Shown here piece after piece: positions 3,241 through 43,110 of a stretch of 64,000 nucleotides of DNA (position 1 is its first letter; each line of letters opens with the position of its first letter). This DNA is from an uncultured Gammaproteobacteria bacterium. Its GTDB lineage: Bacteria > Pseudomonadota > Gammaproteobacteria > DRLM01. The stretch is taken from contig CAVSNY010000003.1 in NCBI GenBank assembly GCA_963729605.1, forward strand, positions 224,001 to 288,000, read 5' to 3'. The notes beneath the pieces were generated by a model, which saw only the letters and a program-made list of their open reading frames with translations, searched no databases and was not told where the DNA came from. The position numbers were made by a program, and so were the translations under genes.

Positions 3241-3447
3241 ATGCGTACTGGTACAGTAAAGTGGTTCAATAATGCAAAAGGTTACGGTTTCATTGCACCT
3301 GAAGATGGCAGTGAAGACGTATTTGTGCATTTCAGCGCAATTCAAGGTGACGGTTTTCGGACATTGGCCGAAGGACAACATGTCAACTTCGAAGTTGAAG
3401 CAGGTCCCAAGGGTTTGCATGCTGTTGCTGTAAATATGGTTAATTAA
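3241..3447 (+). CDS. Cold-shock protein (CspA/CspD family)
   Basis: [15 protein letters not shown] and [12 protein letters not shown] motifs. Confidence 0.96.
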
Positions 3448-3795
3448 TGCTTTGAGCCGGTCTTCTCCGGACAGCGATTCAAGTGGGTTGAGTCGCTTGA
3501 AGCATATGAGCCTTGAACCGTTTTCTCGGTAAGGAATGCTTGCGGTTTTTCCTTGCCTGAGAAAAGCTATCGCTGTCCCAATTTTTTATCCCTGGCCTAT
3601 ATCAGTCGGATGACTGAAACTCGTATCAAGGTATAATCTTGTGCGCATGTATTCGTCAGCCGCTTTTATATCTGAAAATTCCCGCGGCTGCCTCGGGCGC
3701 GGGACCAGGCGATGGGGCGTGGTTCTCCGTTGAGCAGACGGAGGATTCATTTCCCGCGCGAAGTCAGACAATTTAATATTATCGCGACCAGCCAG

Positions 3796-4527
3796 ATGTC
3801 CATTGTTCCCCCCCTTGATTTGCCATCGTTCACCGTCCGAATTAGTCCACGCGCCAAACGGTTGTTACTTAAAGTATCACCGCTAGGGCAGATTGAAGTT
3901 GTCGCGCCGCGGCGGGTTGATCCTATGGCAATCCACGTGTTTGTGCAAAGTCATCATCAATGGCTGCGGCGGACCCTTGCCTGTTTGGAAGCAGAGCGTA
4001 GGCAATACCATGCTGATGAGGCGGCTTTGCCTTCGCGGATTGAGTTGCGCGCACTCGGCGAGAGCTGGTCGCTCGAGGTCATGCAGAATCCGGATACCGG
4101 GCCCGGCGGATCATCGCTAATCATACGCGATGGAAAATTATCGATTCGCGCCGCCGGCCATGACGCAACCGTCCGCGCGTTGCGTGCCTGGTTGCAGGCC
4201 TACGCCAAGCGATGCTTGGCCCCGTGGTTAAGGGAGATCAGCTTCGAGCTGGGCTTGCCGTTTCGTTCTTTAAGCGTGCGGGTACAGAAAAGTCGTTGGG
4301 GGAGCTGCTCTCATCTAGGCGCTATCAGTCTTAACCGCAATTTACTTTTTTTGCCGCCGCATCTTGTTCGTCATGTGATGTTGCATGAACTTTGTCACAC
4401 GGTACATTTAAATCACAGCGGCCGATATTGGCGGCTGGTGCGGCGTCATGAGCCATGTTATGAGGCCCATGAACGCGAATTACGGCATGGCGATCGTTAT
4501 ATCCCCGCGTGGGCCTTTCCGAAATAA
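3796..4527 (+). CDS. YgjP/DUF45-like (SprT-like) zinc metallohydrolase
   Basis: QKSRWGSCS and VMLHELCHTVHLNHS (HExxH). Confidence 0.88.
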   Translation: MSIVPPLDLPSFTVRISPRAKRLLLKVSPLGQIEVVAPRRVDPMAIHVFVQSHHQWLRRTLACLEAERRQYHADEAALPSRIELRALGESWSLEVMQNPDTGPGGSSLIIRDGKLSIRAAGHDATVRALRAWLQAYAKRCLAPWLREISFELGLPFRSLSVRVQKSRWGSCSHLGAISLNRNLLFLPPHLVRHVMLHELCHTVHLNHSGRYWRLVRRHEPCYEAHERELRHGDRYIPAWAFPK

Positions 4528-4558
4528 GCCGCGTTATGTTTCGCGCAAATCGCCCGGA

Positions 4559-5302
4559 TCAATGGGTGGCCGTACGTCTGGGAAAACAAAGTTGATAAAA
4601 ACATACCAGCCATTGGAAAGCGAACGCCAGTCCCATTAGCCCGCCACCGACCATGACGACATAAGCGAAGCCAGTGGAGACTTTGGTGAGCCACCAGGAA
4701 GCAATATCGAGAAAGATGGCGACGAACGGCACGCAAATCACCACGATTTTCAAAGTCTGATTGCGCATATACGAATGACTGAAGATTAATCCCATCAAGG
4801 CGAAGATGAAGGTGAGTCCGAACAGATGAATGTGCGAGACTCGGACCAAGGTGCCGATGCTGACGCCGGTGTCCAGTTGAGCCAGGTTCTTGATTTCGGA
4901 AAAACTGGTCAGGGCTGGAATATGTGGGTTGGAACCATCATGGCAAGCTAAGCAGCGGGCCTCGACAATGGGTTTGACTTTGGTCTGATAGGTATCTTCA
5001 TTTCCACCGTTTCTCACCCATTCCACGATAGCAGCTCGTTCCTCCGCGGAGAGCATGCTACTCATGGGCCCTTTGAGCGCGATCTCCAAGCGTGTGTCGG
5101 ATTTACTGCCGCTGTACGCGATTTGGATGTCCTGTACCGAAAGAGAGGGGTTGCCATCGCGTCCCGCATGCACTTCATAGATCTGAATCATCGCGAAGAG
5201 ATACCCGATCCCCATGACCAGCAAAATATTGATGTAAAGCGCCTTCAAACTGGCGGGCAGTTCGTTGAACAAGGGATAACGGGGATGAGAATAACTGTTC
5301 AT
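4559..5302 (-). CDS. Conserved membrane protein with a single CxxCH heme-c motif
   Basis: N-terminal TM helix, soluble loop with RCLACHDG, then LVRVSHIHLFG and about three further TM helices. Confidence 0.75.
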   Translation of the reverse strand: MNSYSHPRYPLFNELPASLKALYINILLVMGIGYLFAMIQIYEVHAGRDGNPSLSVQDIQIAYSGSKSDTRLEIALKGPMSSMLSAEERAAIVEWVRNGGNEDTYQTKVKPIVEARCLACHDGSNPHIPALTSFSEIKNLAQLDTGVSIGTLVRVSHIHLFGLTFIFALMGLIFSHSYMRNQTLKIVVICVPFVAIFLDIASWWLTKVSTGFAYVVMVGGGLMGLAFAFQWLVCFYQLCFPRRTATH

Positions 5303-5599
5303 GGTTGGGTAGCCTCTTCAGGAGCCGATGCGTTTGCGCGCACTGAATCGATGAATTGTTGAATGGATGGGGATGCGGCCATGATGGATAAGGCAAGCGC
5401 CAAGCTTGTACTCCTTGGAAAAATGCGCTTGATTACGCAAACCCGGGTCCGCAAAGGGCGGTCATTATAATGGCAGCCACCGCGAAAGACCAAACGGGAT
5501 CACTCGACACGCAAGTCAGTACGATCAATCGGCTGACTTGACTGGCGCATTGCATCATTTGCAATTATCATTCCGGCGGTCGAATGTGAGGAGTAGAGA

Positions 5600-6238
5600 G
5601 TGGGTCCGATTGATAAATTGCTCGATGGGTATAAGCGGTTCCGCGATCAGTATTTCCATCAGGAACCGGAGTTGTTCGTCAATCTGGCCGCCCGCGGGCA
5701 GGCCCCCGCGGTGGCGGTGATCGCTTGCTGCGATTCACGGGTCGATCCAGCGATCATTATGGATTGTGAGCCCGGTGACTTGTTCATCATTCGCAACGTG
5801 GCCAATCTGATTCCGCCGTATGATCCGGACGGCCGGCACCATGGCACCAGCGCCGCTTTGGAATTTGCGGTGTGCGGTTTGAAGGTGAGTCACATCATCG
5901 TGATCGGCCATGCCCAGTGCGGGGGCATACGGGCCTTATTAAAGGGCGATGACGCCGGGCAGCCGGGGGATTTTGTCGCATCCTGGATGAGGATCGCCGA
6001 CGGGGCGCGGAATGAGACCCTCGGCAATCCCGCGTTAAAAACCGCCGATGAACGCGCACGCTACTGCGAACATGCGGCGATCCGTTCATCCTTGGATAAT
6101 CTATTGACCTTTCCCTGGATCAAGGAGCGGGTGGAACAGCGGCAGCTGTGCTGCCATGGCTGGTATTTCGATATCGGGTCAGGCGAGTTGTTGCGTTATG
6201 ATCCGCTTCGAGGTGCGTTTTTAACGCATCTGACCTGA
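5600..6238 (+). CDS. Beta-class carbonic anhydrase
   Basis: ACCDSRV, PGDLFIIRNVAN, AALEFAV and GHAQCGG zinc-ligand motifs. Confidence 0.95.
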   Translation: MGPIDKLLDGYKRFRDQYFHQEPELFVNLAARGQAPAVAVIACCDSRVDPAIIMDCEPGDLFIIRNVANLIPPYDPDGRHHGTSAALEFAVCGLKVSHIIVIGHAQCGGIRALLKGDDAGQPGDFVASWMRIADGARNETLGNPALKTADERARYCEHAAIRSSLDNLLTFPWIKERVEQRQLCCHGWYFDIGSGELLRYDPLRGAFLTHLT

Positions 6239-6384
6239 TCCAATGCACCCGACGCGGGTGCGCGTTCATCATGGGTAAGCAAATGCCGGCCCGCTTCGAT
6301 CCTTTCACTTCGCTCACCCTCGAAGCCGGTATGACTGGCGAGGAAAATCCAACCCTAACGGCTTGCCGGCGTGATTTGTTGATA

Positions 6385-7038
6385 TCAATAGTGGCCGATC
6401 ACGCTTGGTGTTGGGGGGGCGCGGTGCACTATTTGTCGCGCCTCGGTATCCGTTAAATAACGCCACGGTATAGGGAAGAGGCCGGGCACCCGCCGTCGGT
6501 AAATACGGTAGGGTTCGCCGATGGTGGCGATGAGTTTGTTTTCCTCCAGGCGTGAACCGATCAGGAAATAGAGGCTGATTAAGATGGCGCTGGTTAACCA
6601 GGCCGGGTCCATGGCGCGAGTCCAGATGATGATTAACGCAAAGAAATACCACGGATGACGTACATAGCGATGGAGTGGCGAGATGTGGAAATAAACCGGT
6701 TCAGCAGGGTGCTGACGGCGGGTGTTCATGCCGAGGAATTCACCCATATCATAATGGCGCAACGACCAAGCGAAACCCGCCGCTGCTAATAAGGCGGCCG
6801 CATTGGTCAACCACCAGCTTATGCCTTGCCAAGTCCATAATGGCGGACCCGATGCATAATGCATTAAGGCGATGGGAGGCAGTAACAGAAGAACGGCGAG
6901 GACATTGTAGGCGAGCCGATAATAAGGCATGAAATCCAGCCAACGTTCACCTGCCCAGCGTTTAAATTTCAGAGAGGCCAGCGTGGAATGAATGACGAAA
7001 TAAATCAGCCAGGCTAACGCCAAACCAACTAACAACAT
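6385..7038 (-). CDS. NnrU / isoprenylcysteine carboxylmethyltransferase-like (MddA-like) membrane methyltransferase; start uncertain
   Basis: HSTLAS, YYRLAYN, HRYVRHPWY, GSRLEENKL..YRIYRRRVP. Confidence 0.8.
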   Translation of the reverse strand: MLLVGLALAWLIYFVIHSTLASLKFKRWAGERWLDFMPYYRLAYNVLAVLLLLPPIALMHYASGPPLWTWQGISWWLTNAAALLAAAGFAWSLRHYDMGEFLGMNTRRQHPAEPVYFHISPLHRYVRHPWYFFALIIIWTRAMDPAWLTSAILISLYFLIGSRLEENKLIATIGEPYRIYRRRVPGLFPIPWRYLTDTEARQIVHRAPPTPSVIGHY

Positions 7039-7546
7039 AAAATCTTGTTCGTTAATAAACGGTGCTTGGACCATCCTTGTACCCAATGATGCCGGCGCGC
7101 CTAAGAGCTTCTCGCCGAATGCATCCATCCTATCGTTTAAATACCCTGCGGGCGGTTCGTGCTCCAATTAAATCATGGCCATCTGCTATCATGAAAAATA
7201 TTTTTATGCAAGGATTATCGAGAACATTGCCCTTGTTTGCTGTACTCAAGGCGAGGGACGCTGGTATACTGGCGCCAGTCTTATCGCTGCTTCGCCGATA
7301 CTCGGCCTTTTACGGCAGCGTTCAACCCCGCCGATACGCGGGAGAGCCCACGGAAATGGGCAACGGTTTGTCCCGTATGCAAGACCTGTATAGGGGATAT
7401 TGAGGGACATTCCCGGTTGCTACTCAGCCGGGCGTGTCTGATTTTCACGGTGGCGGCAGGCCAAAACGCGGGTGTTCGCGACATGGCCACACCGCCCGTA
7501 AAGTGACCCAACGAACTGATAGTTTCGTAGTGATGGAGGGTACACC

Positions 7547-8392
7547 GTGGCGCCGTGCGAAAAAAATGCACATGTTGAAACGCGTCTTTATCAAACCCAT
7601 GGCGGCTTAAAAGCGCTGTTGTTTGCCGCGCCGATCGCAATCGCCGCGGTGATCGCGCATTTCGTCGCGCCTAAACCGCTGGTCATGATGGCGAGTGAGG
7701 CATTTGCGAATTATTGCAACGCGGATGTCTTGGCCAGTAACGAGGATTTCGCCACCGGGGATCAGGCCGGATCACACGCCTTTTTTGACACTTCGTGGTT
7801 GCCGAACTTTCGTGATTTCGCCGCGGTAAGCAGTCATAGGGACAAGGGACAAACCTTTTGGAATCCCTTAGGTATGAGTTGGTTTACCGGTGAACAATTG
7901 GATTTGCTGAATCTCGCCTTTCAGGTCGGTTATGAAGACGGCGGCGAATCCCATGCTAAATTCTTGCAAGCGGTGTTGATGCAGGAAACCATCGCCGGGC
8001 AATTGGGCCGTTTGGGCCACCTGTCCGCGCCGATGGGTAAACGTTCTTATGGCGTGATGCAGGTGAAAGTGACGGCGGCGCGCGACGTATTGCGCCATAA
8101 ACCGGAGCTGGGTCACTTCCGCACCGATGAACAATTGATCGCGCGCTTGATCGCCGACGATGCATTCAATATGCGCATCGCCTCGGCCTATCTGAACTAT
8201 CTCCGTAAACGTTTCGGCAGCGATCATCAAGCCTTGGTGGCCTATAACGTGGGGCCCAGTGCGGCCAAAAACGTGGTGGACCCGACGCAATTCAAATATG
8301 TTCAGCGCGTCGAACTGTATATGTCCAAGGTGGTGGAACCCTTCAACGGTAAATTCCCCAACGAGACCGGCCGCGCCGCCAAAAAAGTGTAA
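7547..8392 (+). CDS. Lytic transglycosylase SLT-domain protein
   Basis: N-terminal hydrophobic anchor; QAVLMQET (catalytic Glu), SYGVMQV, ALVAYNVG; GGAGGG RBS. Confidence 0.82.
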   Translation: MAPCEKNAHVETRLYQTHGGLKALLFAAPIAIAAVIAHFVAPKPLVMMASEAFANYCNADVLASNEDFATGDQAGSHAFFDTSWLPNFRDFAAVSSHRDKGQTFWNPLGMSWFTGEQLDLLNLAFQVGYEDGGESHAKFLQAVLMQETIAGQLGRLGHLSAPMGKRSYGVMQVKVTAARDVLRHKPELGHFRTDEQLIARLIADDAFNMRIASAYLNYLRKRFGSDHQALVAYNVGPSAAKNVVDPTQFKYVQRVELYMSKVVEPFNGKFPNETGRAAKKV

Positions 8393-8410
8393 GCTTTCCG
8401 CCTTGCATTC

Positions 8411-8986
8411 TCAGAAGTAATCCGGCCCCTGGCCGGGCTTCCATTTGATATTGCAGCCCAGGCTGGGTATTTGTTGTCCGCTCACCGGTTTGCCCGCCAA
8501 CAGCGCGTCCGTCGCGGCGCGTAAATCCTGGCCGGTGACCGGAATGCCGTTGCCGGGACGGCTGTCGTCGAATTGCCCGCGATACACTAAGGCCCGCCGT
8601 TCATCGAATAGAAAAAAATCCGGTGTGCAGGCGGCGCGATAGGCCTTCGCCACTGCTTGGCTTTCGTCAAATAAATAAGGAAAACAATAACCCGCCTCGG
8701 CCGCTTCGGTCGCCATTTTTTCCGGCGCGTCCGCGGGATAATTCTCGGCGTCGTTGGCGTTGATCCCGACGATGGCTAAGCCTTTTCGTTGGTATTCCCG
8801 CGTGAAATCCGCCAGCACGCCGCGCAGGTGTTTTACATAGGGGCAGTGATTGCACATAAAGATCACCAGCAAGGCCGGCGCTGATTTAAAATCGTCGAGC
8901 GTGCGCCAGCGGCCTTCGGTGTCGGGCAGGCGAAACGACGGTGCGGCGGTGCCGAGTTCCAACATAGTGGACTGGGTGCGGGCCAT
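8411..8986 (-). CDS. Thioredoxin-fold AhpC/TSA family protein
   Basis: FMCNHCPYV, AACTPDFFLF, GCNIKWK. Confidence 0.93.
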   Translation of the reverse strand: MARTQSTMLELGTAAPSFRLPDTEGRWRTLDDFKSAPALLVIFMCNHCPYVKHLRGVLADFTREYQRKGLAIVGINANDAENYPADAPEKMATEAAEAGYCFPYLFDESQAVAKAYRAACTPDFFLFDERRALVYRGQFDDSRPGNGIPVTGQDLRAATDALLAGKPVSGQQIPSLGCNIKWKPGQGPDYF

Positions 8987-9110
8987 GCTAGTGTATCTCC
9001 GTAGTGGGCGCGGTAGGTTGATGAAGATGAAAAGTGTAATCGCGGGCCGGGCCGGTCACAAGCGTTGACGGGATTAAACCGAGTGAGCCGCGCGATGGAT
9101 CTGGCAATGA

Positions 9111-9368
9111 ATGACGGCGACTATGACGGGCGGCAGTGAAAATTTCCGGCGGGTCCGGTTTTCGTTGCGGATATCTCCCGACGTGTACCTTGCTTATTAT
9201 CAAGGGGTGGCGCGCGCCGTGGCGGTGAAGTCCTTCGATGGGCGCAACATTCAATTTCCCGCCAAGATTTTGCAGCAATTCGTGACCCGGGAAGGCGTCA
9301 ACGGGACATTTGAAATGGATTTTGACGCGAATAATAAATTCGTCGCCATCCGCCGCATCGGCGATTAA
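9111..9368 (+). CDS. DUF2835 family protein
   Basis: YLAYYQGVARAV..DGRNIQFPA..FVTREGVNGTF pattern. Confidence 0.8.
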   Translation: MTATMTGGSENFRRVRFSLRISPDVYLAYYQGVARAVAVKSFDGRNIQFPAKILQQFVTREGVNGTFEMDFDANNKFVAIRRIGD

Positions 9369-9540
9369 CGGTCCTTACATCGGCTGTACTCATTCAGGTG
9401 GCGGAAGGCCGTCGCGTCGATTCATGATCACTGACGCGTAACGATGCGGACGCCCGTCTTTCTGATCGCCGGCTACGTCTCGGAGATGTTGCGCGCGGGC
9501 AGGCGGTGGGGTAGGGATGGAATCATCTACTCGACAGGTT

Positions 9541-10677
9541 TTATTTAACCCCCGTCCGCTGAGCGCGGGTGATCGCCAGCGCGTAAGGCCCGAGTTCCGC
9601 CGAGAAGGGCGAACCGGCGACCTTGCTGAGGGCGCCTGAATTGGGATCGATGTGAAACGCGGAGATGGTGTTGTTACCGTTATCCGCCACGTAGGCCAAC
9701 TGATCTCTCGGATCGACGATTACCGCGTAAGGAAACCAGGCGGTGGCGTAGGGCGAACCTTCGATTTCAGTCAGCGCGCCGGTTTCCCGGTCCAGCGTGA
9801 AGGCGGAGACGTTGTGGCTACCCCAGTTGGCAACGTAGACGAAACGGTTGCTGGGATCGACGGTGACCGAATAGGGTTGCGCACCGGCCACGAAGGGTGA
9901 GCCGCTTACTTCGGTCAGCGCGCCCGATTTGTCGTCGATGTGAAAGGCCGAGATCGTCGCCGTGCCGTAGTTGGCCACGTACATGAATTGATTGTCGTGG
10001 GACACCGCGATGTAAATCGGGTGGGGATCGGTCTTCGCGATTTGTTGGAGCGGAGTCAGCGAGCCATCGTTCTGATCGACGCGATAACTGCTGACCGATT
10101 CATCGTCGAAATTGGAGACGAAGGCGTAGCGGCCGTTGGGCGACACGGTGATACCGATCGGGTGTTTGCCGGTGGCGACCGGCGCGCCGGTCCGCTGCAA
10201 TGCGCCGGTGGTCTTATCGACCCGATACGGCGTGATCAGATTGGCGTCCTCGCTGGCGACGTAGACATAGCGGTCGTCCGGCGTGATGGTGATGGCGTCG
10301 GGATAGATCCCGACCTGGTAGGGCGACCCCGGCAATATTTCCAACGCGCCGTTTTCAGGATTGATTTTGTAGGCGGACACCGTTCCCGAGCCTTGATTGG
10401 TGGCGTAAACAAAACGACCGTCATGCGATGACGTGATCGAGACCGGGAAGCGTCCCGACTGATAAGGCGAGCCGGGCAAGGCGGTGAGCACGCCGGTTTT
10501 CAGGTCGATGCGATAGCCGGACACATTGTGAGCGGCTTGGTTCGCGGCATAAATATACTCGGCATCCGCTTCGCCGGCGTCGCGTGCCGCCGCTTGATCC
10601 GCCGCGGCGCCGGCGCTGAACGCCAATGACATCGTGATCGTTGCCAAGCCTGTACGCAAACCATGCGGTTTTTGCAT
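9541..10677 (-). CDS. Secreted beta-propeller lactonase (6-phosphogluconolactonase-like)
   Basis: Signal peptide and repeated blades (YVAN..SAF.ID..GALT.V.GSP). Confidence 0.85.
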   Translation of the reverse strand: MQKPHGLRTGLATITMSLAFSAGAAADQAAARDAGEADAEYIYAANQAAHNVSGYRIDLKTGVLTALPGSPYQSGRFPVSITSSHDGRFVYATNQGSGTVSAYKINPENGALEILPGSPYQVGIYPDAITITPDDRYVYVASEDANLITPYRVDKTTGALQRTGAPVATGKHPIGITVSPNGRYAFVSNFDDESVSSYRVDQNDGSLTPLQQIAKTDPHPIYIAVSHDNQFMYVANYGTATISAFHIDDKSGALTEVSGSPFVAGAQPYSVTVDPSNRFVYVANWGSHNVSAFTLDRETGALTEIEGSPYATAWFPYAVIVDPRDQLAYVADNGNNTISAFHIDPNSGALSKVAGSPFSAELGPYALAITRAQRTGVK

Positions 10678-10813
10678 CCGGTATCCCCCCTCTAAAAATC
10701 CGAATGTACTGTCCATGCGCCTGGCGGCGGCATGAGCTTATTCTTTACAACACCACCGACTATACAAAGCGAGGCCGGTACGATTCAAGTCAATTCGGCG
10801 AAACCTGCCGCCG

Positions 10814-13676
10814 TTAAGATTTTCGGCGGCGTTTCGCCGGCATCACATTGGTTTCCTGCAACACCGGCCGCAGGAAATGACCGGTGTACGAGCTTGGATG
10901 TTGCGCCACCGCTTCGGGCGTGCCCGCCGTGAGGATTTCGCCGCCTTTGTCGCCGCCCTCGGGGCCGAGATCGATCAGCCAGTCGGCGGTTTTGATCACG
11001 TCGAGATTGTGTTCGATGATCACGATGGTGTTGCCCTGATCGCGCAGCCGGTGCAATACGTCCAGCAATTGCTGAATGTCGTGGAAGTGCAGGCCCGTGG
11101 TGGGCTCGTCGAGGATGTAGAGGGTGCTGCCGGTGCCGCGTTTGGAGAGTTCGCGCGACAGTTTCACCCGCTGCGCCTCGCCGCCGGAAAGGGTGGTGGC
11201 GTTCTGGCCGAGGCGGATGTAGGAGAGTCCGACGTCCATCAAGGTCTGCAATTTGTTTCGCACCATGGGCACGGCGTCGAAAAACGTCAGCGCGTCTTCG
11301 ACGGTCATGTCCAGCACCTCGAAAATATTTTTACCCTTGAAGCGGATCTCCAGGGTTTCGCGGTTGTAGCGTTTGCCCTTGCACACATCGCATGCTACAT
11401 AAATGTCCGGCAGAAAGTGCATCTCCACCTTGATGACGCCGTCGCCCTGGCAGGCCTCGCAGCGCCCGCCTTTGACATTGAAGCTGAAACGGCCGGGGCC
11501 GTAGCCGCGCGCGCGCGCCTCCTGGGTGCCGGAGAACAGATCGCGAATCGGCGTAAACAAACCGGTATAGGTCGCCGGATTGGAGCGCGGCGTGCGGCCG
11601 ATCGGGCTTTGATCGATATTGATGACCTTGTCGAATTGTTCGAGGCCGACGATCTCCGCGCAGGGCGCCGCCTCCTCGGTGCTGCCGTTGATGACGCGCG
11701 CGGCTTGATGATAAAGCGTATCGTTGACCAGGGTGGATTTGCCGGAGCCGGACACGCCGGTGACGCAGGTCATCAGCCCCACCGGGATGTCGGCGTCGAC
11801 GCCTTTTAAATTATTGCCGCTGGCGCCGCGTATTTTCAGTTGCCGCGCCGGGTCGTTGGGGGTGCGGGCCTGCGGCACGGCGATGCTGCGTTGGCCGCTG
11901 AGATATTGGCCGGTGAGCGAGGCGGGGTTGGCGATCACCGCCTGCGGCGTGCCTTGCGCGACGATCTGGCCGCCGTGGACGCCGGCGCCGGGGCCGATGT
12001 CCACCACGTGGTCGGCGGCGCGGATGGCGTCTTCGTCGTGCTCCACCACGATCACCGTGTTGCCGAGTTCGCGCAGGTGACGCAAGGTGTCGAGCAGGCG
12101 CTGATTGTCGCGCTGGTGCAGGCCGATCGAGGGTTCGTCGAGCATGTACATCACGCCGACCAAACCGGCGCCGATCTGGCTCGCTAAACGTATGCGTTGC
12201 GCCTCGCCGCCGGACAGGGTGTCGGCGCTGCGGTCGAGGGTGAGGTAATCGAGACCGACGTTCACGAGGAAGGTGAGCCGCTCGCCGACCTCGCTTAAGA
12301 ATCTTGTCCGCGATTTCACCGCGCCGGCCGGGCAGGATCAGGTCGTGAAAGAATTGCTGGGCGCGCTCGATGGGCATCGCGGTCACCTCGGGCAGGGTGC
12401 GGCCGGCGAGATAGACATGGCGCGCCTCGGTGCGCAGCCGCGTCCCTTCGCAACTGGGGCAAGGCTGGTTGCTGAGGTATTTCGCCAGTTCTTCGCGCAC
12501 CGCGTTGGATTCGGTCTCGCGGTAGCGGCGTTCCATGTTGGGGATGATGCCTTCGAAAGGATGTTTGCGGCGGGTCTTGGTGCCGCGTTCGTTCAAATAA
12601 ACGAATTCGATTTCCTCGTCGCCGCTGCCGTACAGAATCACCTGGCGGATCTTGGCCGGCACGTCCTCGAAGGGGTCTTCCACGTCGAAGCGGTAATGGC
12701 GCGCCAGCGATTGCAGCATGTGGAAGTAATACACGTTGCGCCGGTCCCAGCCGCGGATCGCGCCGCCGGCGAGGCTCAAGGTGGCATCGACGATCACTCG
12801 CGCCGGGTCGAAGAATTGCTTCACGCCCAGACCGTCGCAGGTCGGGCAGGCCCCCGCCGGGTTGTTGAAGGAGAACAGGCGCGGCTCCAGCTCCGGCAGA
12901 CTGTAGCCGCACAACGGACAGGCGAACTTGGCGGAAAATACCAAGTCGTCGCGCCGGGGTTCGTCGATGAAGGCGATGCGCGCCAGTCCTTCGCTCATGG
13001 CCAGCGCGGTTTCGAAGGAATCCGCCAGGCGTTGCTGCACGTCGGCGCGCACCTTGAAGCGGTCGATCACCACCTCGATGCTGTGTTTCTTGCGCAGATC
13101 CAGCTTGGGCACCTCGTCGAGTTCGGTCACCGCGCCGTCGATGCGGGCGCGCACGAAACCCTGCGCGCGTAATTCGTCGATGAGTTTGTGGTGCTCGCCT
13201 TTGCGTTCCTGCACCACCGGCGCGAGCAGCATCAGCTTGCTGCCCTCCGGCAGGGCCAGCACCTGATCGACCATCTGGCTGACGGTTTGCGCCGCCAGCA
13301 CGGTGCCGTGGTCGGGGCAGCGCGGTTCGCCGGCGCGGGCGAACAGCAGACGCAGGTAATCGTAGATTTCGGTCATGGTGCCGACGGTGGAGCGGGGGTT
13401 GTGCGAGGTGGATTTCTGCTCGATGGAAATCGCCGGCGACAGACCTTCGATATGGTCGACGTCCGGCTTTTCCATCATCGACAAAAATTGCCGCGCGTAA
13501 CTGGAGAGCGATTCCACGTAGCGCCGTTGGCCTTCCGCATAAATGGTGTCGAAGGCCAGCGAGGATTTGCCCGAACCGGACAGGCCGGTGATGACGATCA
13601 ATTTGTCGCGCGGCAAATCCAGGTCGATGTTTTTTAGATTATGGGTGCGTGCGCCGCGTATCCGAATACTTTCCAT
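10814..13676 (-). CDS. uvrA: Excinuclease ABC subunit A, split by one frameshift near 12295
   Basis: [21 protein letters not shown], zinc fingers, two LSGGEAQR motifs; ORFs 11811-13841 and 10814-12319 join at [15 protein letters not shown]. Confidence 0.95.
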
Positions 13677-38623: not shown

Positions 38624-40459
38624 TTAATCTAAACCCACCGGTAGCGGAGGCTGTACAAGATCAGGTCTGTTCTTCTGCTCGCTCTTCAGTAGCTGGTGGG
38701 CGCCGATATACAACTCATCCATGGCGGTATTCATGAAACAGCGGAAAGCATCTTCCGGCGTGCATGCGATGGGTTCGCCGCGCACATTGAACGACGTATT
38801 GACGATCACCCCGTAACCGGTCAATTGCTTGAAGCGGGTGATCAAGGCGTGATAGAGCGGATGGGTATCGGCATGCACGGTTTGAACCCGCGCCGAATAA
38901 TCCACATGCGTGACCGCGGGAATATCGGAGCGCGCGATGTTGACCTGATCGAGTCCGCGAATATCGCGTTCGGCATCGGTGCGTTCACGGCGTCGCGAGC
39001 TTTTGACCGGCGCGACCAACAGCATATAGGGACTGTCCACCGCCAAATCGAAATATTCGGCCACGTCTTCGCGCAACACCGAAGGCGCGAACGGGCGAAA
39101 CGACTCGCGGTATTTTATTTTCAGATTCATCACCGATTGGGTGGAGGGTGAGCGCGGGTCGCCTAAAATGCTGCGTGCGCCCAAGGCGCGCGGACCAAAT
39201 TCCATCCGACCTTGAAACCAGCCGATGACCTTGCCGTCGGCGATGGCGCGGGCGGCCTGATCGACCAATTGCGTTTCATCGAGCGCATGGTAATGCGCAC
39301 CGAGACGATCGAGGTCGGCCTTGATTTCTGGGTCGCCGTACGACGGTCCGAGATAGGCGCCATGCATGCCGTCGCGACCGCTGCGTGACGCCCTTTGGCC
39401 TTCGCATTGGAGGTGATAGACTGCCAACGCGGCGCCGACCGCGCCGCCGGCATCACCGGCCGCGGGCTGGATCCACAATCCATCGTATAAACCGCTTTGC
39501 AATAATTTACCGTTGGCCACGCTATTGAGCGCGACGCCGCCCGCCAAACACAGATTCGCCATCCCGTATTCATGGCGGAGGGCGTTTGCCAATTTCAATA
39601 CCACCTCCTCGGTCACCACTTGGATCGAACGGGCCAGGTCCATATCCATTTGCGTGATTTCCGTCTCGGGGCGGCGCGGACCGCGTCCGAATAAGCGATC
39701 GAAATGGCGATTGGTCATGGTGAGACCGGTGCAGTAGTTGAAATAGCGCATGTTCAAACGAAATGAGCCGTCGGCCGCGATCTCGATGAGATGCCGGCGG
39801 ATGAGGTCGGTGTAAACCGGTTCACCGTACGGCGCCAGGCCCATCAGTTTGTATTCGCCGGAGTTGACTTTAAAGCCGGTGAAATAGGTGAAGGCCGAAT
39901 ACAGCAGGCCTAGGGAATGGGGAAAATGGATCTCTCGGATCGGGCGCAGCGTCCGGCCTTTGCCGATCATCACCGAGGTGGTGGTCCATTCACCCACGCC
40001 GTCCATGGTGAGAATCAATGCCTCATCGAACGGCGAGGGATAAAACGCGGAGGCGGCGTGGGAAAGGTGATGTTCCGAGAATAACAACCGTTTTGCGTCA
40101 AAATCCGGGGCGAGGGCCTGCAAGCCGCGGATCAATTCCCGTTTTTGGAAGAGCTTCTCCTTGAGCCACAGCGGCATGGCTTTGACGAAGGAACGGAAGC
40201 CGGCTGGCGCGAAGGCGTGGTAGGTCTCGAGCAGCCGTTCGAATTTGAGGAAGGGTTTTTCGTAAAACACTACCCATTGGATTTCATCGAGGCCGATGCT
40301 GGCTTCGCGCAGGCAGTATTGTATGGACCGTGCGGGAAAACCGGCATCGTGTTTGACGCGAGTGAAGCGCTCCTCTTGCGCCGCGGCGATAACGTCGCCA
40401 TCGCGGATCAGCGCCGCGGCGCTATCGTGGTAATAAGCGGAGAGACCGAGAATCCACAC
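38624..40459 (-). CDS. O-carbamoyltransferase, NodU/CmcH/TobZ family (SxtI-like)
   Basis: ILGLSAYYHDSAAAL, QEERFTRVKHD, EHHLSHAASAF, GEYKLMGLAPYG, AGGVALN, EFGPRALG, KYRESFRPFAP, NTSFN. Confidence 0.95.
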   Translation of the reverse strand: MWILGLSAYYHDSAAALIRDGDVIAAAQEERFTRVKHDAGFPARSIQYCLREASIGLDEIQWVVFYEKPFLKFERLLETYHAFAPAGFRSFVKAMPLWLKEKLFQKRELIRGLQALAPDFDAKRLLFSEHHLSHAASAFYPSPFDEALILTMDGVGEWTTTSVMIGKGRTLRPIREIHFPHSLGLLYSAFTYFTGFKVNSGEYKLMGLAPYGEPVYTDLIRRHLIEIAADGSFRLNMRYFNYCTGLTMTNRHFDRLFGRGPRRPETEITQMDMDLARSIQVVTEEVVLKLANALRHEYGMANLCLAGGVALNSVANGKLLQSGLYDGLWIQPAAGDAGGAVGAALAVYHLQCEGQRASRSGRDGMHGAYLGPSYGDPEIKADLDRLGAHYHALDETQLVDQAARAIADGKVIGWFQGRMEFGPRALGARSILGDPRSPSTQSVMNLKIKYRESFRPFAPSVLREDVAEYFDLAVDSPYMLLVAPVKSSRRRERTDAERDIRGLDQVNIARSDIPAVTHVDYSARVQTVHADTHPLYHALITRFKQLTGYGVIVNTSFNVRGEPIACTPEDAFRCFMNTAMDELYIGAHQLLKSEQKNRPDLVQPPLPVGLD

Positions 40460-40460
40460 G

Positions 40461-40610
40461 TCAAAAAACGGTGTAGATGAAGGGGGCGAGGGCGCTGCCT
40501 TGTACGAAGACGATCAGAGCGCCGAGCAGTAACAAGACCATGATGATGGGCAACAGCCAGATTTTTTTTCGGGCACGCATGAAGGCCCATAATTCGCGGA
40601 TAAAATCCAT
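40461..40610 (-). CDS. 49-aa membrane peptide, DUF5989/SxtK-like, C-terminal FIYTVF (missing from the ORF track)
   Basis: Translated by hand: MDFIRELWAFMRARKKIWLLPIIMVLLLLGALIVFVQGSALAPFIYTVF; overlaps the upstream stop (TGATG) and ends 1 nt before the carbamoyltransferase GTG. Confidence 0.9.
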   Translation of the reverse strand: MDFIRELWAFMRARKKIWLLPIIMVLLLLGALIVFVQGSALAPFIYTVF

Positions 40611-40990
40611 CAGAATTGGTCCTTGAAGGAACTAAAGGTGTTTTCTTCGCGTGAAGTCCAATAACTGGGTGCGGGTCCGGCGCGCAGCTTGAGGGTGTCA
40701 CGGCCGATCATTCTAAATACCAACGCGAGGGGCGTGATCAATAAAAAAAAGGCCAGCGCCAGTAGCAGCCAGGTGTTGAGCGTACCCAGCACATGGCCCA
40801 CCGCCAGCCATACTTTGAGCAGCGGTTTTAGAACGATGGGTGCGGCGAGGGCTAGCACCGCCAAGCCTGCCGCCGCCATCAGCCAGGAATCGGCCGGTGC
40901 TCGGCCATCGAGTGTCGGCCATAGCGCTATCGCCCCGGCGATGCCCGCCAGGATGAGTCCGAATGATCTTTCTTGCCGGTATCCAGCCAT
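40610..40990 (-). CDS. SxtJ-family membrane protein
   Basis: RSFGL, about three TM segments, LKPLLKVW..GHVLG..N, FFLLITP, SYW, terminal KDQF. Confidence 0.88.
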   Translation of the reverse strand: MAGYRQERSFGLILAGIAGAIALWPTLDGRAPADSWLMAAAGLAVLALAAPIVLKPLLKVWLAVGHVLGTLNTWLLLALAFFLLITPLALVFRMIGRDTLKLRAGPAPSYWTSREENTFSSFKDQF

Positions 40991-41235
40991 TTTAAGTTCA
41001 CTTTGAATAGTTCATCGAGACGGCGTTCGGTTGGCGCTAACGGCAAGCGGCTCCGGGGCGATCCCTCCGTTTTTCTATAACGGGAGAGGGCGCGGCTCGC
41101 TTGAACGAATCCTGACCTACCCGTAAAAATATTATTCCGATCAAATAGAAGTCTACCGTAGAGTTCCGGTACAATGCCAGAATTGGCGCCGGCCTCAATC
41201 CACCACAACGTCGAATTCATGTTTTGATCTCCGCT

Positions 41236-43110
41236 ATGCGCAATGTATCTGCCAATCGCAGGAAGCTGCTGCTTTATACCGTAGTGCTGTTTTTTCCGGT
41301 GGCGTTTTTTTTAGTTCTGGAAAGCGGGCTGCGTTATTTTGACTATGGGGAGAATCTGGATTTATTCGTCCCGGCGCCCGCCGGGTTCGCCGATAAAAAC
41401 TTTCTAATGACCAACCCGGAGATCGCCCGGCGTTATTTCTCGTCCCAGTCGTATCGGCCACGCCCGCCGGATGAATATTTCCTCCAAGAGAAGCCTAAGA
41501 ATGGTTATCGGATCTTCGTGCTCGGCGAATCGACGACGGCTGGTTGGCCTTATCCCAATAACGTGATGTTTTCACGGATGCTCAATCAGCGCTTGGCGGA
41601 GGCGTTTCCCGAACGGGACATCGAGGTGGTGAATACCGCCCTCGCCGCGGTGAACAGTTTCACTTTGAATGATTTCATGGATGAGATTCTGGCGCAGCGA
41701 CCCGACGCCATTTTGATATATGCCGGCCACAATGAATTTTATGGCGCGCTGGGCGCCGGTTCCACCGAATCTTTAGGGCGGGTGCGCTGGGTGGTCAAGG
41801 CGTATCTGGCTTTGTTGCGTTTCAAGACCGTGCAGTTATTGCGTGACGTCGTCAATAATTCCAGCGGGTGGATAGCCGGCTTGGTATCGGATAAATCGCC
41901 GCAGGATCCGTACCCCACTTTGATGGGTCGCATGATAGGCGAAGCCAGTATTCCCTACGGCAGCGCAACCTACCAGGTGGCCAAGCGGAATTTTCAGGAA
42001 AATCTGCGGGAGATATTCCGCAAGGCCCAGCGAGCCGGTGTGCGGGTGCTGGCCAGTGATCTGGTGAGCAATGTGCGGGATCACCGGCCGTTTGCCGCGG
42101 TCCATGAAGGCGATGAGCTATCCGCCGATGTGATCTTCGAATGGGCAAAATTGCTCGATAAAGAACAGATGTACGGCATGGCCAGGACGGCTTATTACTG
42201 GGCGAAGGACATGGACGGCCTCCGTTTCCGCGCCTCCGAAGAATTCAACGATGTCATCCATCAGGTGGCGGCCGAGTTTAAAGTGCCGGTGGTACCGATG
42301 AAGTCTTATTTTGAAGCCGTTTCGCCGCAAGGGATCATCGGCGCCAATTTGATGCTGGAACATTTGCATCCCAATAGCGATGGTTATTTGTTGATGAGCG
42401 AAGCCTTTTTTCAGGGAATGCGTCAACATCAATTTATCAGTGCGACGTGGGATGCAAATAAAATCAGGCCTCTTGCTTTCTACGCGCAATATTGGGGCAT
42501 TACTGAACTTGATCGGGCTCTCGGCGCCTTTCGGGTCATGCAGCTGATGGATCATTGGCCGTTTCAGCCGCCTTCATCACCCACGCGTATCTTCGCGGAC
42601 TATCAACCTCAGACCAAGGCGGAAGAACTTGCTTACAGGGTTGCCAAAGAAGAGTTGGACTTTTTTCAGGCGCATGTCGAACTCGCGGCTTATTATTTTC
42701 AGCAGGGACAAAATGAACGGGCATTCGCGGAATATCAAGCGTTGATAAATGCCGTACCTTATGACGCCCATGTTTATCTCAGCGCCGCAAGCGTGTTGCT
42801 GCAACAAAGACAATATGAGCAGGCATTACCTTTGCTTTACGGCTCGCTTACCCTCAAAGACAGCAGTACCGCGAACAAATGGATAGGCCAGATCCATTTA
42901 TATAATAATCGGCCGCAGGAGGCCCTGAAGTTCCTTGAAAAAGCCTTTGCCCTGGAACCGAAAGATACCCAATTGCTTTACAACCTCGCCGGAGCCTATG
43001 GGCTAACCGGCCAGAAGGATAATGGCCGTCGGTTATTCGCGCATTTGGAAAAGCTCGCGCCGGACTTTCCCCGACTGGATCAGCTGAAACAATTATTGAA
43101 TCAACCTTGA
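41236..43110 (+). CDS. Membrane-anchored SGNH/GDSL-family protein with C-terminal TPR repeats
   Basis: N-terminal TM; block I FVLGESTTAG, block III YAGHNE, block V LEHLHPN; TPR-like helices at the C-terminus. Confidence 0.87.
   Translation: MRNVSANRRKLLLYTVVLFFPVAFFLVLESGLRYFDYGENLDLFVPAPAGFADKNFLMTNPEIARRYFSSQSYRPRPPDEYFLQEKPKNGYRIFVLGESTTAGWPYPNNVMFSRMLNQRLAEAFPERDIEVVNTALAAVNSFTLNDFMDEILAQRPDAILIYAGHNEFYGALGAGSTESLGRVRWVVKAYLALLRFKTVQLLRDVVNNSSGWIAGLVSDKSPQDPYPTLMGRMIGEASIPYGSATYQVAKRNFQENLREIFRKAQRAGVRVLASDLVSNVRDHRPFAAVHEGDELSADVIFEWAKLLDKEQMYGMARTAYYWAKDMDGLRFRASEEFNDVIHQVAAEFKVPVVPMKSYFEAVSPQGIIGANLMLEHLHPNSDGYLLMSEAFFQGMRQHQFISATWDANKIRPLAFYAQYWGITELDRALGAFRVMQLMDHWPFQPPSSPTRIFADYQPQTKAEELAYRVAKEELDFFQAHVELAAYYFQQGQNERAFAEYQALINAVPYDAHVYLSAASVLLQQRQYEQALPLLYGSLTLKDSSTANKWIGQIHLYNNRPQEALKFLEKAFALEPKDTQLLYNLAGAYGLTGQKDNGRRLFAHLEKLAPDFPRLDQLKQLLNQP

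What the first reader, a model, noticed from the sequence alone, without database searches (positions are those of the whole stretch)
40461..40610. Unannotated 49-aa peptide ends in FIYTVF, matching the DltX-type tyrosine acyl-shuttle motif
Seen: a small ORF missed by the ORF track, with a basic N-terminus (RARKK, likely inside), one TM helix and C-terminal APFIYTVF. Established: the C-terminal F-I/L-Y-x-x-F hexapeptide of DltX, also found at the C-termini of AlgI/PatA-type MBOATs, carries the acyl group on its Tyr to an SGNH-type transferase. Inference: DUF5989/SxtK is a carbamoyl shuttle loaded without an MBOAT, possibly through SxtJ. This would extend the acyl-shuttle mechanism to carbamoyl chemistry.
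Basis: partly seen in the sequence, partly recalled or inferred. Interest (0 to 1): 0.85.

Follow-up and report, generated by a model that had tools for sequence, protein, structure and literature searches.

The report
Tyrosine-tailed microprotein of carbamoyl-transfer module
A real 49-residue membrane peptide (the SxtK/DUF5989 family) ends in the same tyrosine motif that other bacteria use to hand acyl groups to surface-modifying enzymes, and it probably does this job for carbamoyl groups.

Summary
The ORF is there exactly as described (40461-40610, minus strand, 49 aa, ends APFIYTVF). It is a full-length member of Pfam DUF5989 (91 bits).

It is translationally coupled between an SxtJ-like gene and a NodU/TobZ-type carbamoyltransferase. 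A membrane-anchored SGNH-TPR protein is encoded divergently. The same four parts form sxtI-J-K-L of saxitoxin clusters.

- **Motif:** In samples chosen through SxtJ alone, all 50 complete peptides keep A-P-F-x-Y. 46 end FxYxxF and 4 end FxYxxY.
- **Genome co-occurrence:** The SGNH family tracks SxtJ (52 genomes with both, 4 SxtJ only, 14 SGNH only, 231 neither).
- **Shared partner:** The same SGNH family also sits beside MBOATs ending FIYF[DQ]F. One locus carries both donor types side by side.
- **No MBOAT here:** The window's genome has none.
- **Modelling:** A complex model supports peptide-SGNH binding (ipSAE 0.61, best control 0.00), with Ile45/Tyr46 at the active-site rim.

The carbamoyl-tyrosine shuttle reading is therefore well supported by comparison and modelling, but not shown chemically. 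How a cytoplasmic enzyme would load a periplasmic tyrosine is unexplained. SxtJ has no conserved catalytic residue, and peptide-less variants exist.

No paper in the searchable library makes this link. This scan noted a similar idea earlier on phage DNA.

The parts
40461..40610 (-). DUF5989/SxtK-type microprotein, 49 aa: basic amphipathic N-terminus, one TM helix, C-terminal APFIYTVF
   Evidence: ORF. Pfam PF19451 at 91.3 bits, full length. Homologues.
40464..40481 (-). Terminal hexapeptide F44-I-Y46-T-V-F49 (FxYxxF). The Tyr46 codon is 40473-40475.
   Evidence: Read. A42, P43, F44 and Y46 are invariant in 50 of 50 SxtJ-anchored peptides. It aligns in register with MBOAT tails.
40610..40990 (-). 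SxtJ-like small membrane protein, 126 aa. Its stop overlaps the microprotein's start (TGATG).
   Evidence: Pfam PF19588 at 44.2 bits. It lies directly upstream of the peptide in most of the 80 loci. Conservation.
38624..40459 (-). NodU/TobZ-type O-carbamoyltransferase, 611 aa, no signal sequence. Its start is 1 nt after the microprotein's stop.
   Evidence: Carbam_trans_N at 352 bits and Carbam_trans_C at 239.7 bits. 56-64% identical to module-linked enzymes of other phyla.
41224..43110 (+). Divergently encoded 628-aa protein: N-terminal anchor helix, SGNH domain (G101-E-S103, N137, N170, H382), C-terminal TPR repeats
   Evidence: Lipase_GDSL_2 at 55 bits plus TPR families. Family-wide G101, S103 and H382. 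SGNH fold at Z 20.1, rmsd 2.6, 188 aligned residues. Predicted to bind the microprotein.

Best explanation
The ORF encodes the carrier of a four-part, MBOAT-independent O-carbamoylation module. The module is the same as sxtI-J-K-L of saxitoxin clusters and is widespread in bacteria. The cytoplasmic carbamoyltransferase activates carbamoyl (carbamoyl phosphate plus ATP, as known for TobZ/NodU-type enzymes). The microprotein sits N-in/C-out, with its helix packed on the anchor helix and two membrane-proximal helices of the SGNH protein. Its C-terminal A-P-F-I-Y-T-x-F tail carries the group as O-carbamoyl-Tyr46 to Ser103 of the periplasmic SGNH domain. That domain passes it to an extracytoplasmic acceptor hydroxyl, probably a glycan; the TPR tail suggests a polymer or export partner. 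SxtJ couples the cytoplasmic enzyme to the peptide at the membrane. One donor module can serve several SGNH paralogues. Shown here: the gene and its family, invariance and position of the tail, the conserved module, shared use of one SGNH family by MBOAT-tail and peptide-tail donors, and a controlled model of peptide-SGNH binding. Inferred: the covalent carbamoyl-tyrosine, the direction of transfer, the loading route across the membrane, and the acceptor.
For: (1) Tail. 120 of 120 closest homologues end FxYxxF. Of the best 150 of 3131 representatives, 117 end so, 22 carry the motif followed by unrelated extensions, and 11 vary near the end; Tyr is kept in all 150. In samples chosen by SxtJ only and detected with a profile lacking the last 9 columns, 22 of 26 and 24 of 24 complete peptides end FxYxxF. 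The other 4 end FIYTLY. A42, P43, F44 and Y46 are invariant in 50 of 50.
(2) Module. The carbamoyltransferase is present in 74 of 80 loci and SxtJ in 74 of 80, in the orders J-K-CT (29 loci) and CT-J-K (28 loci). Only these genes and the SGNH family recur among 1007 neighbouring genes.
(3) SGNH link. Homologues occur in 50 of 80 loci, within 500 bp in 44, and in 29 of 41 loci with at least 4 kb on both sides. All 5 genomes tested whose module lacks such a neighbour have family members elsewhere. Across 301 genomes: 52 have both, 4 SxtJ only, 14 SGNH only, 231 neither (hand count).
(4) The SGNH proteins have an N-terminal anchor helix, with G101 in 69/71, S103 in 70/71 and H382 in 71/71.
(5) The same family flanks MBOATs ending FIYF[DQ]F (L177, L178, L180). 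In L176 the order is SGNH-SGNH-MBOAT(FIYFDF)-CT-SxtJ-peptide(FIYTLF)-SGNH. MBOAT-linked and peptide-linked SGNHs intermix in a quick tree: 6 label changes against a shuffled mean of 6.7.
(6) 29 of 30 MBOAT loci have an ORF over 350 aa ending FxYxxF.
(7) The own genome (94.5% complete) has no MBOAT. 23 of 56 SxtJ-positive genomes show none.
(8) Complex model of the peptide with SGNH residues 1-460: ipSAE 0.62, 0.61 and 0.01, median 0.61, best of 3 controls 0.00. That mark was reached by 58 of 80 solved complexes and 2 of 110 mismatched pairs. The runs agree in at least 21% of contacts and the partner pLDDT is at least 57. The helices are parallel, and I45/Y46 touch S73, A142, Y173 and L176, next to the oxyanion blocks.
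(9) sxtI, J, K and L are consecutive genes and sxtL is GDSL-like (tables and passages of PMC2679770). A locus whose SxtJ matches Pfam at 193 bits has CT-J-peptide(FIYSIF)-GDSL.
Against: - No chemistry has been shown.
- The carbamoyltransferase has no signal sequence and Tyr46 is predicted to be periplasmic. No route for the group across the membrane is known.
- SxtJ has no conserved His/Ser/Cys/Asp and no similarity to MBOATs (probability 0.8%).
- The peptide resembles MBOAT tails over 9-12 columns only (probability 40% and 3.9%). Pfam at E<=10 returns no DltX family, so descent from DltX is unsupported.
- The whole peptide is conserved (60-80% identity across phyla), so tail conservation alone is not specific.
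- 4 of 50 peptides end in Y rather than F.
- 12 of 41 loci with full flanks lack an SGNH neighbour.
- Peptide-less variants exist: CT-SxtJ-SGNH with extra N-terminal helices (L166, L169), and phage CT with a mini-SxtJ.
- One of the three complex runs scored 0.01, and S103 and H382 are not among the confident contacts.
- The structural neighbours are generic esterases (Z 20.1); PatB (Z 16.8) and OatA (Z 16.5) rank lower.
- Carbamoyl-serine adducts of serine hydrolases are usually long-lived (my own knowledge), so turnover would need explaining.
Confidence: 0.55

Rival explanations
1. Membrane tether only. SxtJ and the microprotein anchor and orient the cytoplasmic carbamoyltransferase at the membrane, so that it modifies a lipid-linked or exported substrate directly. 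The conserved tail is a binding epitope for the SGNH protein or another partner and never carries a group.
For: The whole peptide is conserved, including the cytoplasmic amphipathic helix (W8, R14, K16 and W18 are invariant in alignment A1). CT-SxtJ pairs exist without the peptide. The topology problem of the shuttle model disappears. [quoted passage not shown]
Against: It does not explain why the invariant block is exactly A-P-F-x-Y at the extreme C-terminus, in register with MBOAT tails. It also does not explain why the partner SGNH family is the one used by motif-bearing MBOATs, or why the family keeps its Ser/His.
Confidence: 0.2
2. Editing hydrolase. The SGNH protein removes carbamoyl or other ester groups (the classical 'decarbamoylase' proposal for SxtL), and the microprotein is its membrane partner or regulator.
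For: SxtL was proposed to be a decarbamoylase on the basis of GDSL-lipase homology (passage of PMC2679770). The nearest solved structures are esterases.
Against: An enzyme and its antagonist would not be expected to track each other this closely (52 both, 4 and 14 alone), nor to occur as up to three tandem SGNH copies per module. Known MBOAT partners of this fold are transferases.
Confidence: 0.12
3. The tyrosine shuttle is real, but it carries another acyl group supplied by a different, unlinked donor. The neighbouring carbamoyltransferase acts on its own substrate.
For: The motif is known only for acetyl and D-alanyl groups. In L176 an MBOAT lies in the same locus.
Against: The peptide is translationally coupled to the carbamoyltransferase here and adjacent to it in most loci. 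The own genome and 22 other SxtJ-positive genomes show no MBOAT.
Confidence: 0.05

Closest known systems
DltX with DltB (MBOAT) and DltD (SGNH-like), teichoic acid D-alanylation
   Same: A stand-alone single-pass microprotein whose extracytoplasmic C-terminal FxYxxF tyrosine is proposed to pass a group to the serine of a membrane-anchored SGNH-type partner (for DltX; here).
   Different: There is no MBOAT and no carrier protein; the linked donor enzyme is a soluble carbamoyltransferase plus SxtJ. The group would be carbamoyl, not D-alanyl. No sequence similarity was detected beyond the tail. The host is Gram-negative-type.
PatA/PatB, AlgI/AlgJ/AlgX and related MBOAT-SGNH O-acetyltransferases
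   Same: The same terminal motif, a helix followed by a short linker and F[ILV]Y..F at the very end (29 of 30 MBOAT loci). The SGNH partner family is the same as here. AlgX, AlgJ and PatB1 match the SGNH profile at E 6.5e-12, 2.9e-10 and 4.5e-4.
   Different: In those systems the motif is fused to the MBOAT, which loads it through its own transmembrane funnel from acetyl-CoA. Here the motif is on a separate 49-aa peptide and the loader is unknown.
SxtI-SxtJ-SxtK-SxtL of cyanobacterial saxitoxin clusters
   Same: The same four families in the same order. The window's peptide and the SxtK-position peptide both match DUF5989 (91.3 and 86.7 bits).
   Different: This window has no other sxt genes nearby. 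Its SGNH protein has an added TPR domain. The acceptor here is unknown and is probably a cell-envelope polymer rather than an alkaloid.
OatA (AT3-SGNH) peptidoglycan O-acetyltransferase
   Same: It uses an acetyl-tyrosine intermediate that donates to an SGNH domain (passage). The OatA SGNH domain is a structural neighbour (Z 16.5, rmsd 2.1, 150 aligned).
   Different: Its tyrosine lies in an AT3 membrane domain fused to the SGNH domain. It has no microprotein and no carbamoyltransferase.

Membership tests
Pfam DUF5989 (PF19451) | Match to the family profile above the curated cut-off over the full length | tested here: met
   91.3 bits against a cut-off of 27, residues 1-49 on profile 1-49.
SxtK (saxitoxin cluster microprotein) | Small ORF directly after sxtJ, next to sxtI (carbamoyltransferase) and sxtL (GDSL-like) | tested here: met
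   Gene order in the window. sxtI-J-K-L are consecutive, with sxtK 165 bp. Locus L142, whose SxtJ matches Pfam at 193 bits, has a 53-aa DUF5989 peptide (86.7 bits) in that position. The name SxtK for L142's peptide is my inference; no record name was seen.
SxtK (saxitoxin cluster microprotein) | Part of a saxitoxin biosynthetic cluster | tested here: not met
   The neighbours within 7 kb are glycerol/glycerophosphodiester metabolism genes, DUF4399, RNase D-like, glyoxalase and unknown secreted proteins. No other sxt-type enzyme was seen.
DltX-type acyl-shuttle microprotein | Single-pass microprotein ending in FxYxxF on the extracytoplasmic side | tested here: met
   The sequence ends FIYTVF. 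Topology is inferred from charge distribution only. The helix runs parallel to the SGNH anchor helix in the model.
DltX-type acyl-shuttle microprotein | Sequence homology to DltX | tested here: inconclusive
   Pfam scan at E<=10 returns only DUF5989. The PDB profile search gives only chance hits on hydrophobic helices. No DltX sequence from a tool was available for a direct profile comparison.
DltX-type acyl-shuttle microprotein | Loaded by an MBOAT (DltB) | tested here: not met
   No PF03062 match in the own genome, which is 94.5% complete. 23 of 56 SxtJ-positive genomes are without one.
DltX-type acyl-shuttle microprotein | Binds a membrane-anchored SGNH-type partner | tested here: met
   A prediction only: ipSAE median 0.61, best control 0.00. 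The mark was reached by 58 of 80 solved and 2 of 110 mismatched pairs. Contacts agree in at least 21% and partner pLDDT is at least 57. Gene linkage.
DltX-type acyl-shuttle microprotein | Covalent acyl-tyrosine intermediate | not testable with these tools
   Needs mass spectrometry or radiolabelling.
SGNH/GDSL hydrolase superfamily (the 628-aa neighbour) | Blocks I, II, III and V with Ser, Gly/Asn, Asn and His, and the SGNH fold | tested here: met
   GES103, N137, N170 and H382. The usual block II glycines and block V Asp are replaced here (A139/A142, E379). Fold Z 20.1, rmsd 2.6, 188 aligned to 7ddy.
NodU/TobZ/CmcH carbamoyltransferases (the 611-aa neighbour) | Both Carbam_trans domains | tested here: met
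   352 and 239.7 bits. It falls far below the NodU equivalog cut-off (127.9 against 1000), so it is not NodU itself.

The most novel reading that the evidence does not exclude
A widespread, MBOAT-independent machine for carbamoylating molecules outside the cytoplasm. A carbamoyltransferase and SxtJ load the terminal tyrosine of the SxtK/DUF5989 microprotein. That tyrosine hands carbamoyl to any of several membrane-anchored SGNH transferases. On this reading SxtL-type proteins are the terminal carbamoyltransferases rather than decarbamoylases, and the long-unexplained sxtJ and sxtK genes gain a function. The same SGNH family would accept either acetyl-Tyr (from MBOAT tails) or carbamoyl-Tyr (from the peptide), making the tyrosine tail a universal plug for envelope-modifying enzymes.
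Probability: 0.45. Interest if true: 0.9.

Novelty: new variant of a known kind. Interest (0 to 1): 0.8.

Why it matters
SxtJ and SxtK have been 'unknown function' since the saxitoxin cluster was described. [quoted passage not shown]

The module is common. SxtJ was found in 56 of 301 sampled genomes of the window's phylum and in 29 of 201 of a cyanobacterial phylum sample. The peptide occurs in Nitrospira, Gemmatimonadota, Pelagibacteraceae, Acidobacteriota, Bacteroidales and others.

If the reading holds, three things follow:
- The acyl-tyrosine relay extends to a new chemistry and a new, non-MBOAT loader.
- An unrecognised class of O-carbamoylated envelope or secreted molecules is predicted in many environmental bacteria.
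- Direct tests become available (one Tyr, one Ser, a +43 Da mass shift).

Tried and rejected
- **Peptide against solved structures:** the PDB sequence search with the peptide profile gave only chance hits on hydrophobic helices (DsbB, PsbJ; E 0.1 or worse).
- **Pfam at E<=10:** nothing but DUF5989.
- **ESM Atlas:** no usable hit for the peptide or for the flanking Gly-rich protein.
- **Profile-profile comparison:** peptide against MBOAT tails aligns only 9-12 columns in register. SxtJ against MBOAT gives nothing. I therefore dropped the ideas that the peptide or SxtJ descends from the MBOAT C-terminal helices.
- **Placing the SGNH domain:** Foldseek, VIA-align and the PDB profile search cannot place it nearer to PatB, AlgX, AlgJ or OatA than to generic esterases. 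DltD was not listed.
- **Bad alignment:** A3 (fusion plus SxtJ plus peptide rows) was misaligned by MAFFT and was not used.
- **SxtJ-peptide fusion:** the AF2 model of the one natural fusion (P0270) gave only secondary structure, with the tail at pLDDT about 50. It says nothing on where Tyr sits.
- **Complex model:** one of three runs scored 0.01.
- **Expression:** no RNA holder is listed among 24 runs; read laying was not run.
- **Earlier scan notes:** look-ups by place and by sequence gave nothing.
viral-contig scans with the peptide (2 loci) and with the carbamoyltransferase (13 loci) did not recover the 34-residue soluble phage peptide described there.
- **Literature limits:** Schultz et al. 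2023 (PMC10664464), the primary DltX paper, is not held. I could not check whether it already lists DUF5989. Supplements were closed.
- **Literature searches:** DUF5989/PF19451/PF19588 returned 0 papers. Carbamoyltransferase or carbamoylation combined with acyl shuttle, SGNH, microprotein or DltX returned only Dlt/Pat papers, with no carbamoyl term. DltX-type terms combined with O-carbamoyl returned none holding both.

Full report
**1. The observation.**

The ORF is present as described: 40461-40610 on the minus strand, ATG start, 49 residues, MDFIRELWAFMRARKKIWLLPIIMVLLLLGALIVFVQGSALAPFIYTVF.

Reading the DNA shows tight coupling on both sides:
- The stop of the upstream 126-aa gene and this start overlap as TGATG.
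- The peptide's TGA stop is followed, after one base, by the GTG start of a 611-aa gene.

The three genes are therefore translationally coupled.

The peptide is a full-length match to Pfam DUF5989 (91.3 bits, cut-off 27, 1-49 of 49). It is thus a known family of unknown function rather than a new gene. NCBI already names relatives 'DUF5989 family protein'.

Five basic residues precede the single hydrophobic span and no charge follows it, so N-in/C-out is expected (my inference).

In the window's own genome only 2 of 47,714 open frames of at least 40 codons end FxYxxF, this one and an obviously random one.

**2. Surroundings.**

- **Upstream on the same strand:** an SxtJ-family protein (PF19588, 44.2 bits).
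- **Downstream:** a carbamoyltransferase with both Carbam_trans domains (352 and 239.7 bits) and no signal sequence.
- **Divergently encoded:** a 628-aa protein with an N-terminal anchor helix, a GDSL/SGNH domain and TPR repeats.

In the SGNH protein, block I is G-E-S103, the oxyanion blocks hold N137 and N170, and block V is E379-H-L-H382. Its AF2 model (pLDDT 70.6) has an SGNH fold. The best VIA match is Z 20.1, rmsd 2.6, 188 aligned residues. PatB scores Z 16.8 and the OatA SGNH domain Z 16.5.

The rest of the neighbourhood is unrelated metabolism and three unknown Gly-rich secreted proteins.

**3. What is established about the motif.**

Passages of PMC12148441 state the following:
- DltX carries D-alanine on an invariant Tyr in a C-terminal FXYXXF 'acyl shuttle' motif, from the MBOAT DltB to the SGNH-type DltD.
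- Other bacterial MBOATs carry the same motif at their own C-terminus.
- PatA auto-acetylates that Tyr.
- PatB uses the acetylated hexapeptide FIYANF as donor.

I confirmed the MBOAT part on tool-derived sequences. In 29 of 30 MBOAT loci from the window's phylum, an ORF over 350 aa ends F[ILV]Y..F.

**4. Is the tail conserved?**

Among best-scoring hits:
- 120 of 120 closest homologues end FxYxxF.
- Of the best 150 of 3131 representative clusters, 117 end so.
- 22 carry the motif followed by mutually unrelated extensions, which look like assembly or gene-calling artefacts.
- 11 vary near the end.
- Tyr is kept in all 150.

These lists favour high scorers, and the 80 genome loci were found with a pattern that contains the motif. 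I therefore took samples through SxtJ alone and detected the peptide with a profile lacking its last nine columns.

| Sample | Loci | Peptide found | End FxYxxF | Other |
|---|---|---|---|---|
| Window's phylum | 30 | 26 | 22 | 4 end FIYTLY |
| Cyanobacterial-phylum sample | 29 | 25 | 24 | 1 cut by the locus end |

In the first sample, 3 of the 4 loci without the peptide are cut short by contig ends.

Over these 50 peptides (47 distinct), the invariant columns are F10, P21, S39, A42, P43, F44 and Y46. The longest invariant block is the tail.

**5. The module.**

In the 80 loci:
- The carbamoyltransferase is present in 74 and SxtJ in 74.
- The dominant orders are J-K-CT (29 loci) and CT-J-K (28 loci).
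- Among 1007 neighbouring genes, only these three and an SGNH family recur. Glycosyltransferases (9 loci), epimerases (6), asparagine synthases (6) and polysaccharide deacetylases (4) occur now and then.

A profile iterated from residues 1-460 of the window's SGNH protein finds homologues as follows:
- In 50 of 80 loci, often in tandem (three copies in the listed cyanobacterial loci).
- Within 500 bp of the module in 44 loci.
- In 29 of 41 loci that have at least 4 kb on both sides.

All five genomes tested whose module lacks such a neighbour have family members elsewhere.

Across 301 sampled genomes of the phylum, SxtJ and this SGNH family (E<=1e-15) co-occur strongly: 52 with both, 4 with SxtJ only, 14 with SGNH only, 231 with neither. 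This is a hand count from the tables. Related genomes are not independent, and several of the 14 are incomplete.

The family has an N-terminal anchor helix and keeps G101 (69/71), S103 (70/71) and H382 (71/71).

**6. The link to saxitoxin genes.**

The table and passages of PMC2679770 list sxtI (1839 bp), sxtJ (405 bp), sxtK (165 bp) and sxtL (1281 bp, GDSL-lipase homology, proposed decarbamoylase) with consecutive accession numbers.

In locus L142 the SxtJ matches Pfam at 193 bits. There the order is carbamoyltransferase, SxtJ, a 53-aa DUF5989 peptide ending FIYSIF, and a GDSL-like protein.

A review and a 2026 preprint still give no function for SxtJ and SxtK (passages).

**7. The strongest comparative argument.**

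The SGNH family that travels with the peptide is the same one that travels with motif-bearing MBOATs.
- In L177, L178 and L180, one to three members flank an MBOAT ending FIYF[DQ]F or FLYFQF.
- In L176 the minus strand reads SGNH, SGNH, MBOAT (FIYFDF), carbamoyltransferase, SxtJ, peptide (FIYTLF), SGNH.
- In a quick tree of 51 members, the 7 MBOAT-linked rows are scattered among the 44 peptide-linked ones. There are 6 label changes against a shuffled mean of 6.7, and one clade with 99% support holds two of each.

The tree has many long branches and the careful search did not finish.

An MBOAT is not needed by the module. The own genome (94.5% complete) has none. 23 of 56 SxtJ-positive genomes show none, 11 of them at least 98% complete.

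**8. Modelling.**

I modelled the peptide with residues 1-460 of the SGNH protein, each with its own alignment. The results:
- ipSAE was 0.62, 0.61 and 0.01, median 0.61. The best of three controls was 0.00.
- The mark was reached by 58 of 80 solved complexes and 2 of 110 mismatched pairs.
- The runs agree in at least 21% of contacts, and the partner's pLDDT is at least 57.

The counts hold only roughly, because my own alignments were used.

In the model:
- The peptide's helix lies parallel to the anchor helix (SGNH 17-29 against peptide 18-26).
- It also packs on two helices inserted after block III (SGNH 181-214 against peptide 26-37).
- I45 and Y46 touch S73, A142, Y173 and L176, next to the oxyanion blocks.
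- S103 and H382 are not among the confident contacts.

No close solved complex turned up by sequence, so a pass 'from memory' seems less likely, though it cannot be excluded.

**9. What does not fit.**

- **Loading.** This step is the weak point. The carbamoyltransferase is cytoplasmic and Tyr46 is periplasmic.
- **SxtJ is not obviously catalytic.** It has three hydrophobic segments and a positively charged tail. It has no conserved His/Ser/Cys/Asp and no likeness to MBOATs. The one natural SxtJ-peptide fusion (P0270) puts its tail on the peptide's N-terminal (cytoplasmic) side.
- **A conserved tyrosine in SxtJ.** The tail holds a nearly invariant tyrosine (SYW), which could be a docking site or a first acceptor.
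- **No wider homology.** Similarity of the peptide to MBOAT tails is confined to 9-12 columns. This may be convergence or a module too short to trace.
- **Peptide-less variants.** These exist (L166, L169; phage mini-SxtJ loci).
- **Slow chemistry.** Carbamoyl-serine adducts are usually slow to turn over (my own knowledge).

**10. Verdict.**

The best reading, at about 55%, is a carbamoyl-tyrosine carrier serving membrane-anchored SGNH transferases. This is a new variant of the MBOAT-SGNH acyl-tyrosine relay, with a different loader and a different group.

The main rivals are a pure membrane tether (about 20%) and an esterase partner (about 12%).

No paper in the searchable library links DUF5989, SxtK or carbamoyltransferases with the shuttle motif. 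The primary DltX paper could not be read.

Earlier unchecked notes of this scan proposed a soluble tyrosine-tailed peptide beside carbamoyltransferase and SGNH genes in phages (e1-5945606). My viral scans did not recover that peptide.

Noticed in passing
window 37474-38466 (+), 43347-44435 (-), 44477-45436 (-): Three proteins with signal-peptide-like N-termini and glycine-rich C-termini ending ...GGWGW...GGWGW and ...GRGGW flank the module. None has a Pfam or NCBIfam match. Two of them are paralogues (31% identity, E 4e-39), and the Atlas gave no hit. They are not conserved next to the module in other genomes. Their function, and whether the tail is a sorting signal, is unknown.
   Followed up: partly
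L176 (G025:C22:35000-47500), minus strand 10945..3401: One locus carries both donor types side by side: SGNH, SGNH, an MBOAT ending FIYFDF, carbamoyltransferase, SxtJ, a DUF5989 peptide ending FIYTLF, SGNH. It looks like a polymer-modification locus with an acyl branch and a carbamoyl branch.
   Followed up: yes
L166:1879-3213 (+) and L169:82-1410 (-): In two genomes of the cyanobacterial-phylum sample, the carbamoyltransferase and SxtJ are followed directly by an SGNH protein with about three extra N-terminal hydrophobic helices. No DUF5989 peptide is present. This is a peptide-less variant of the module.
   Followed up: partly
L185, L187, L188, L192 (4851-4997) and L186 (6800-6973): Viral contigs carry a close relative of the module's carbamoyltransferase next to a 'mini-SxtJ' of 48-57 residues, consisting only of the last helix and the SYW tail. 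No DUF5989 peptide is present. In L186 the mini-SxtJ ends ...KYTLW and is followed by an SGNH gene.
   Followed up: partly
window 40610-40990 (-), SxtJ residue Tyr110 (motif P-S-Y-W): The SxtJ tail, positively charged and probably cytoplasmic, holds a tyrosine conserved in at least 90% of 42 aligned sequences, and the protein ends in a conserved Q-F/Y. This could be a docking site or a first acceptor for the carbamoyltransferase. Untested.
   Followed up: no
P0270 (194 aa): A single natural SxtJ-peptide fusion was found among the best 150 representatives. The other long 'relatives' are start-codon over-extensions in another frame of the sxtJ gene. The fusion implies that the SxtJ C-terminus and the peptide's N-terminus lie on the same side of the membrane.
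   Followed up: partly
L181:5998-6150 (viral contig): A DUF5989 peptide ending FIYTLF lies in a viral contig, with no carbamoyltransferase, SxtJ or SGNH within 6 kb.
   Followed up: no
window 38624-40459 (-) and alignment A5: Module-linked carbamoyltransferases from different phyla are unusually alike (56-64% identity to the window's enzyme, mean column identity 71%). They share an invariant C-terminal ...L-D (mostly F-E-L-D).
   Followed up: no
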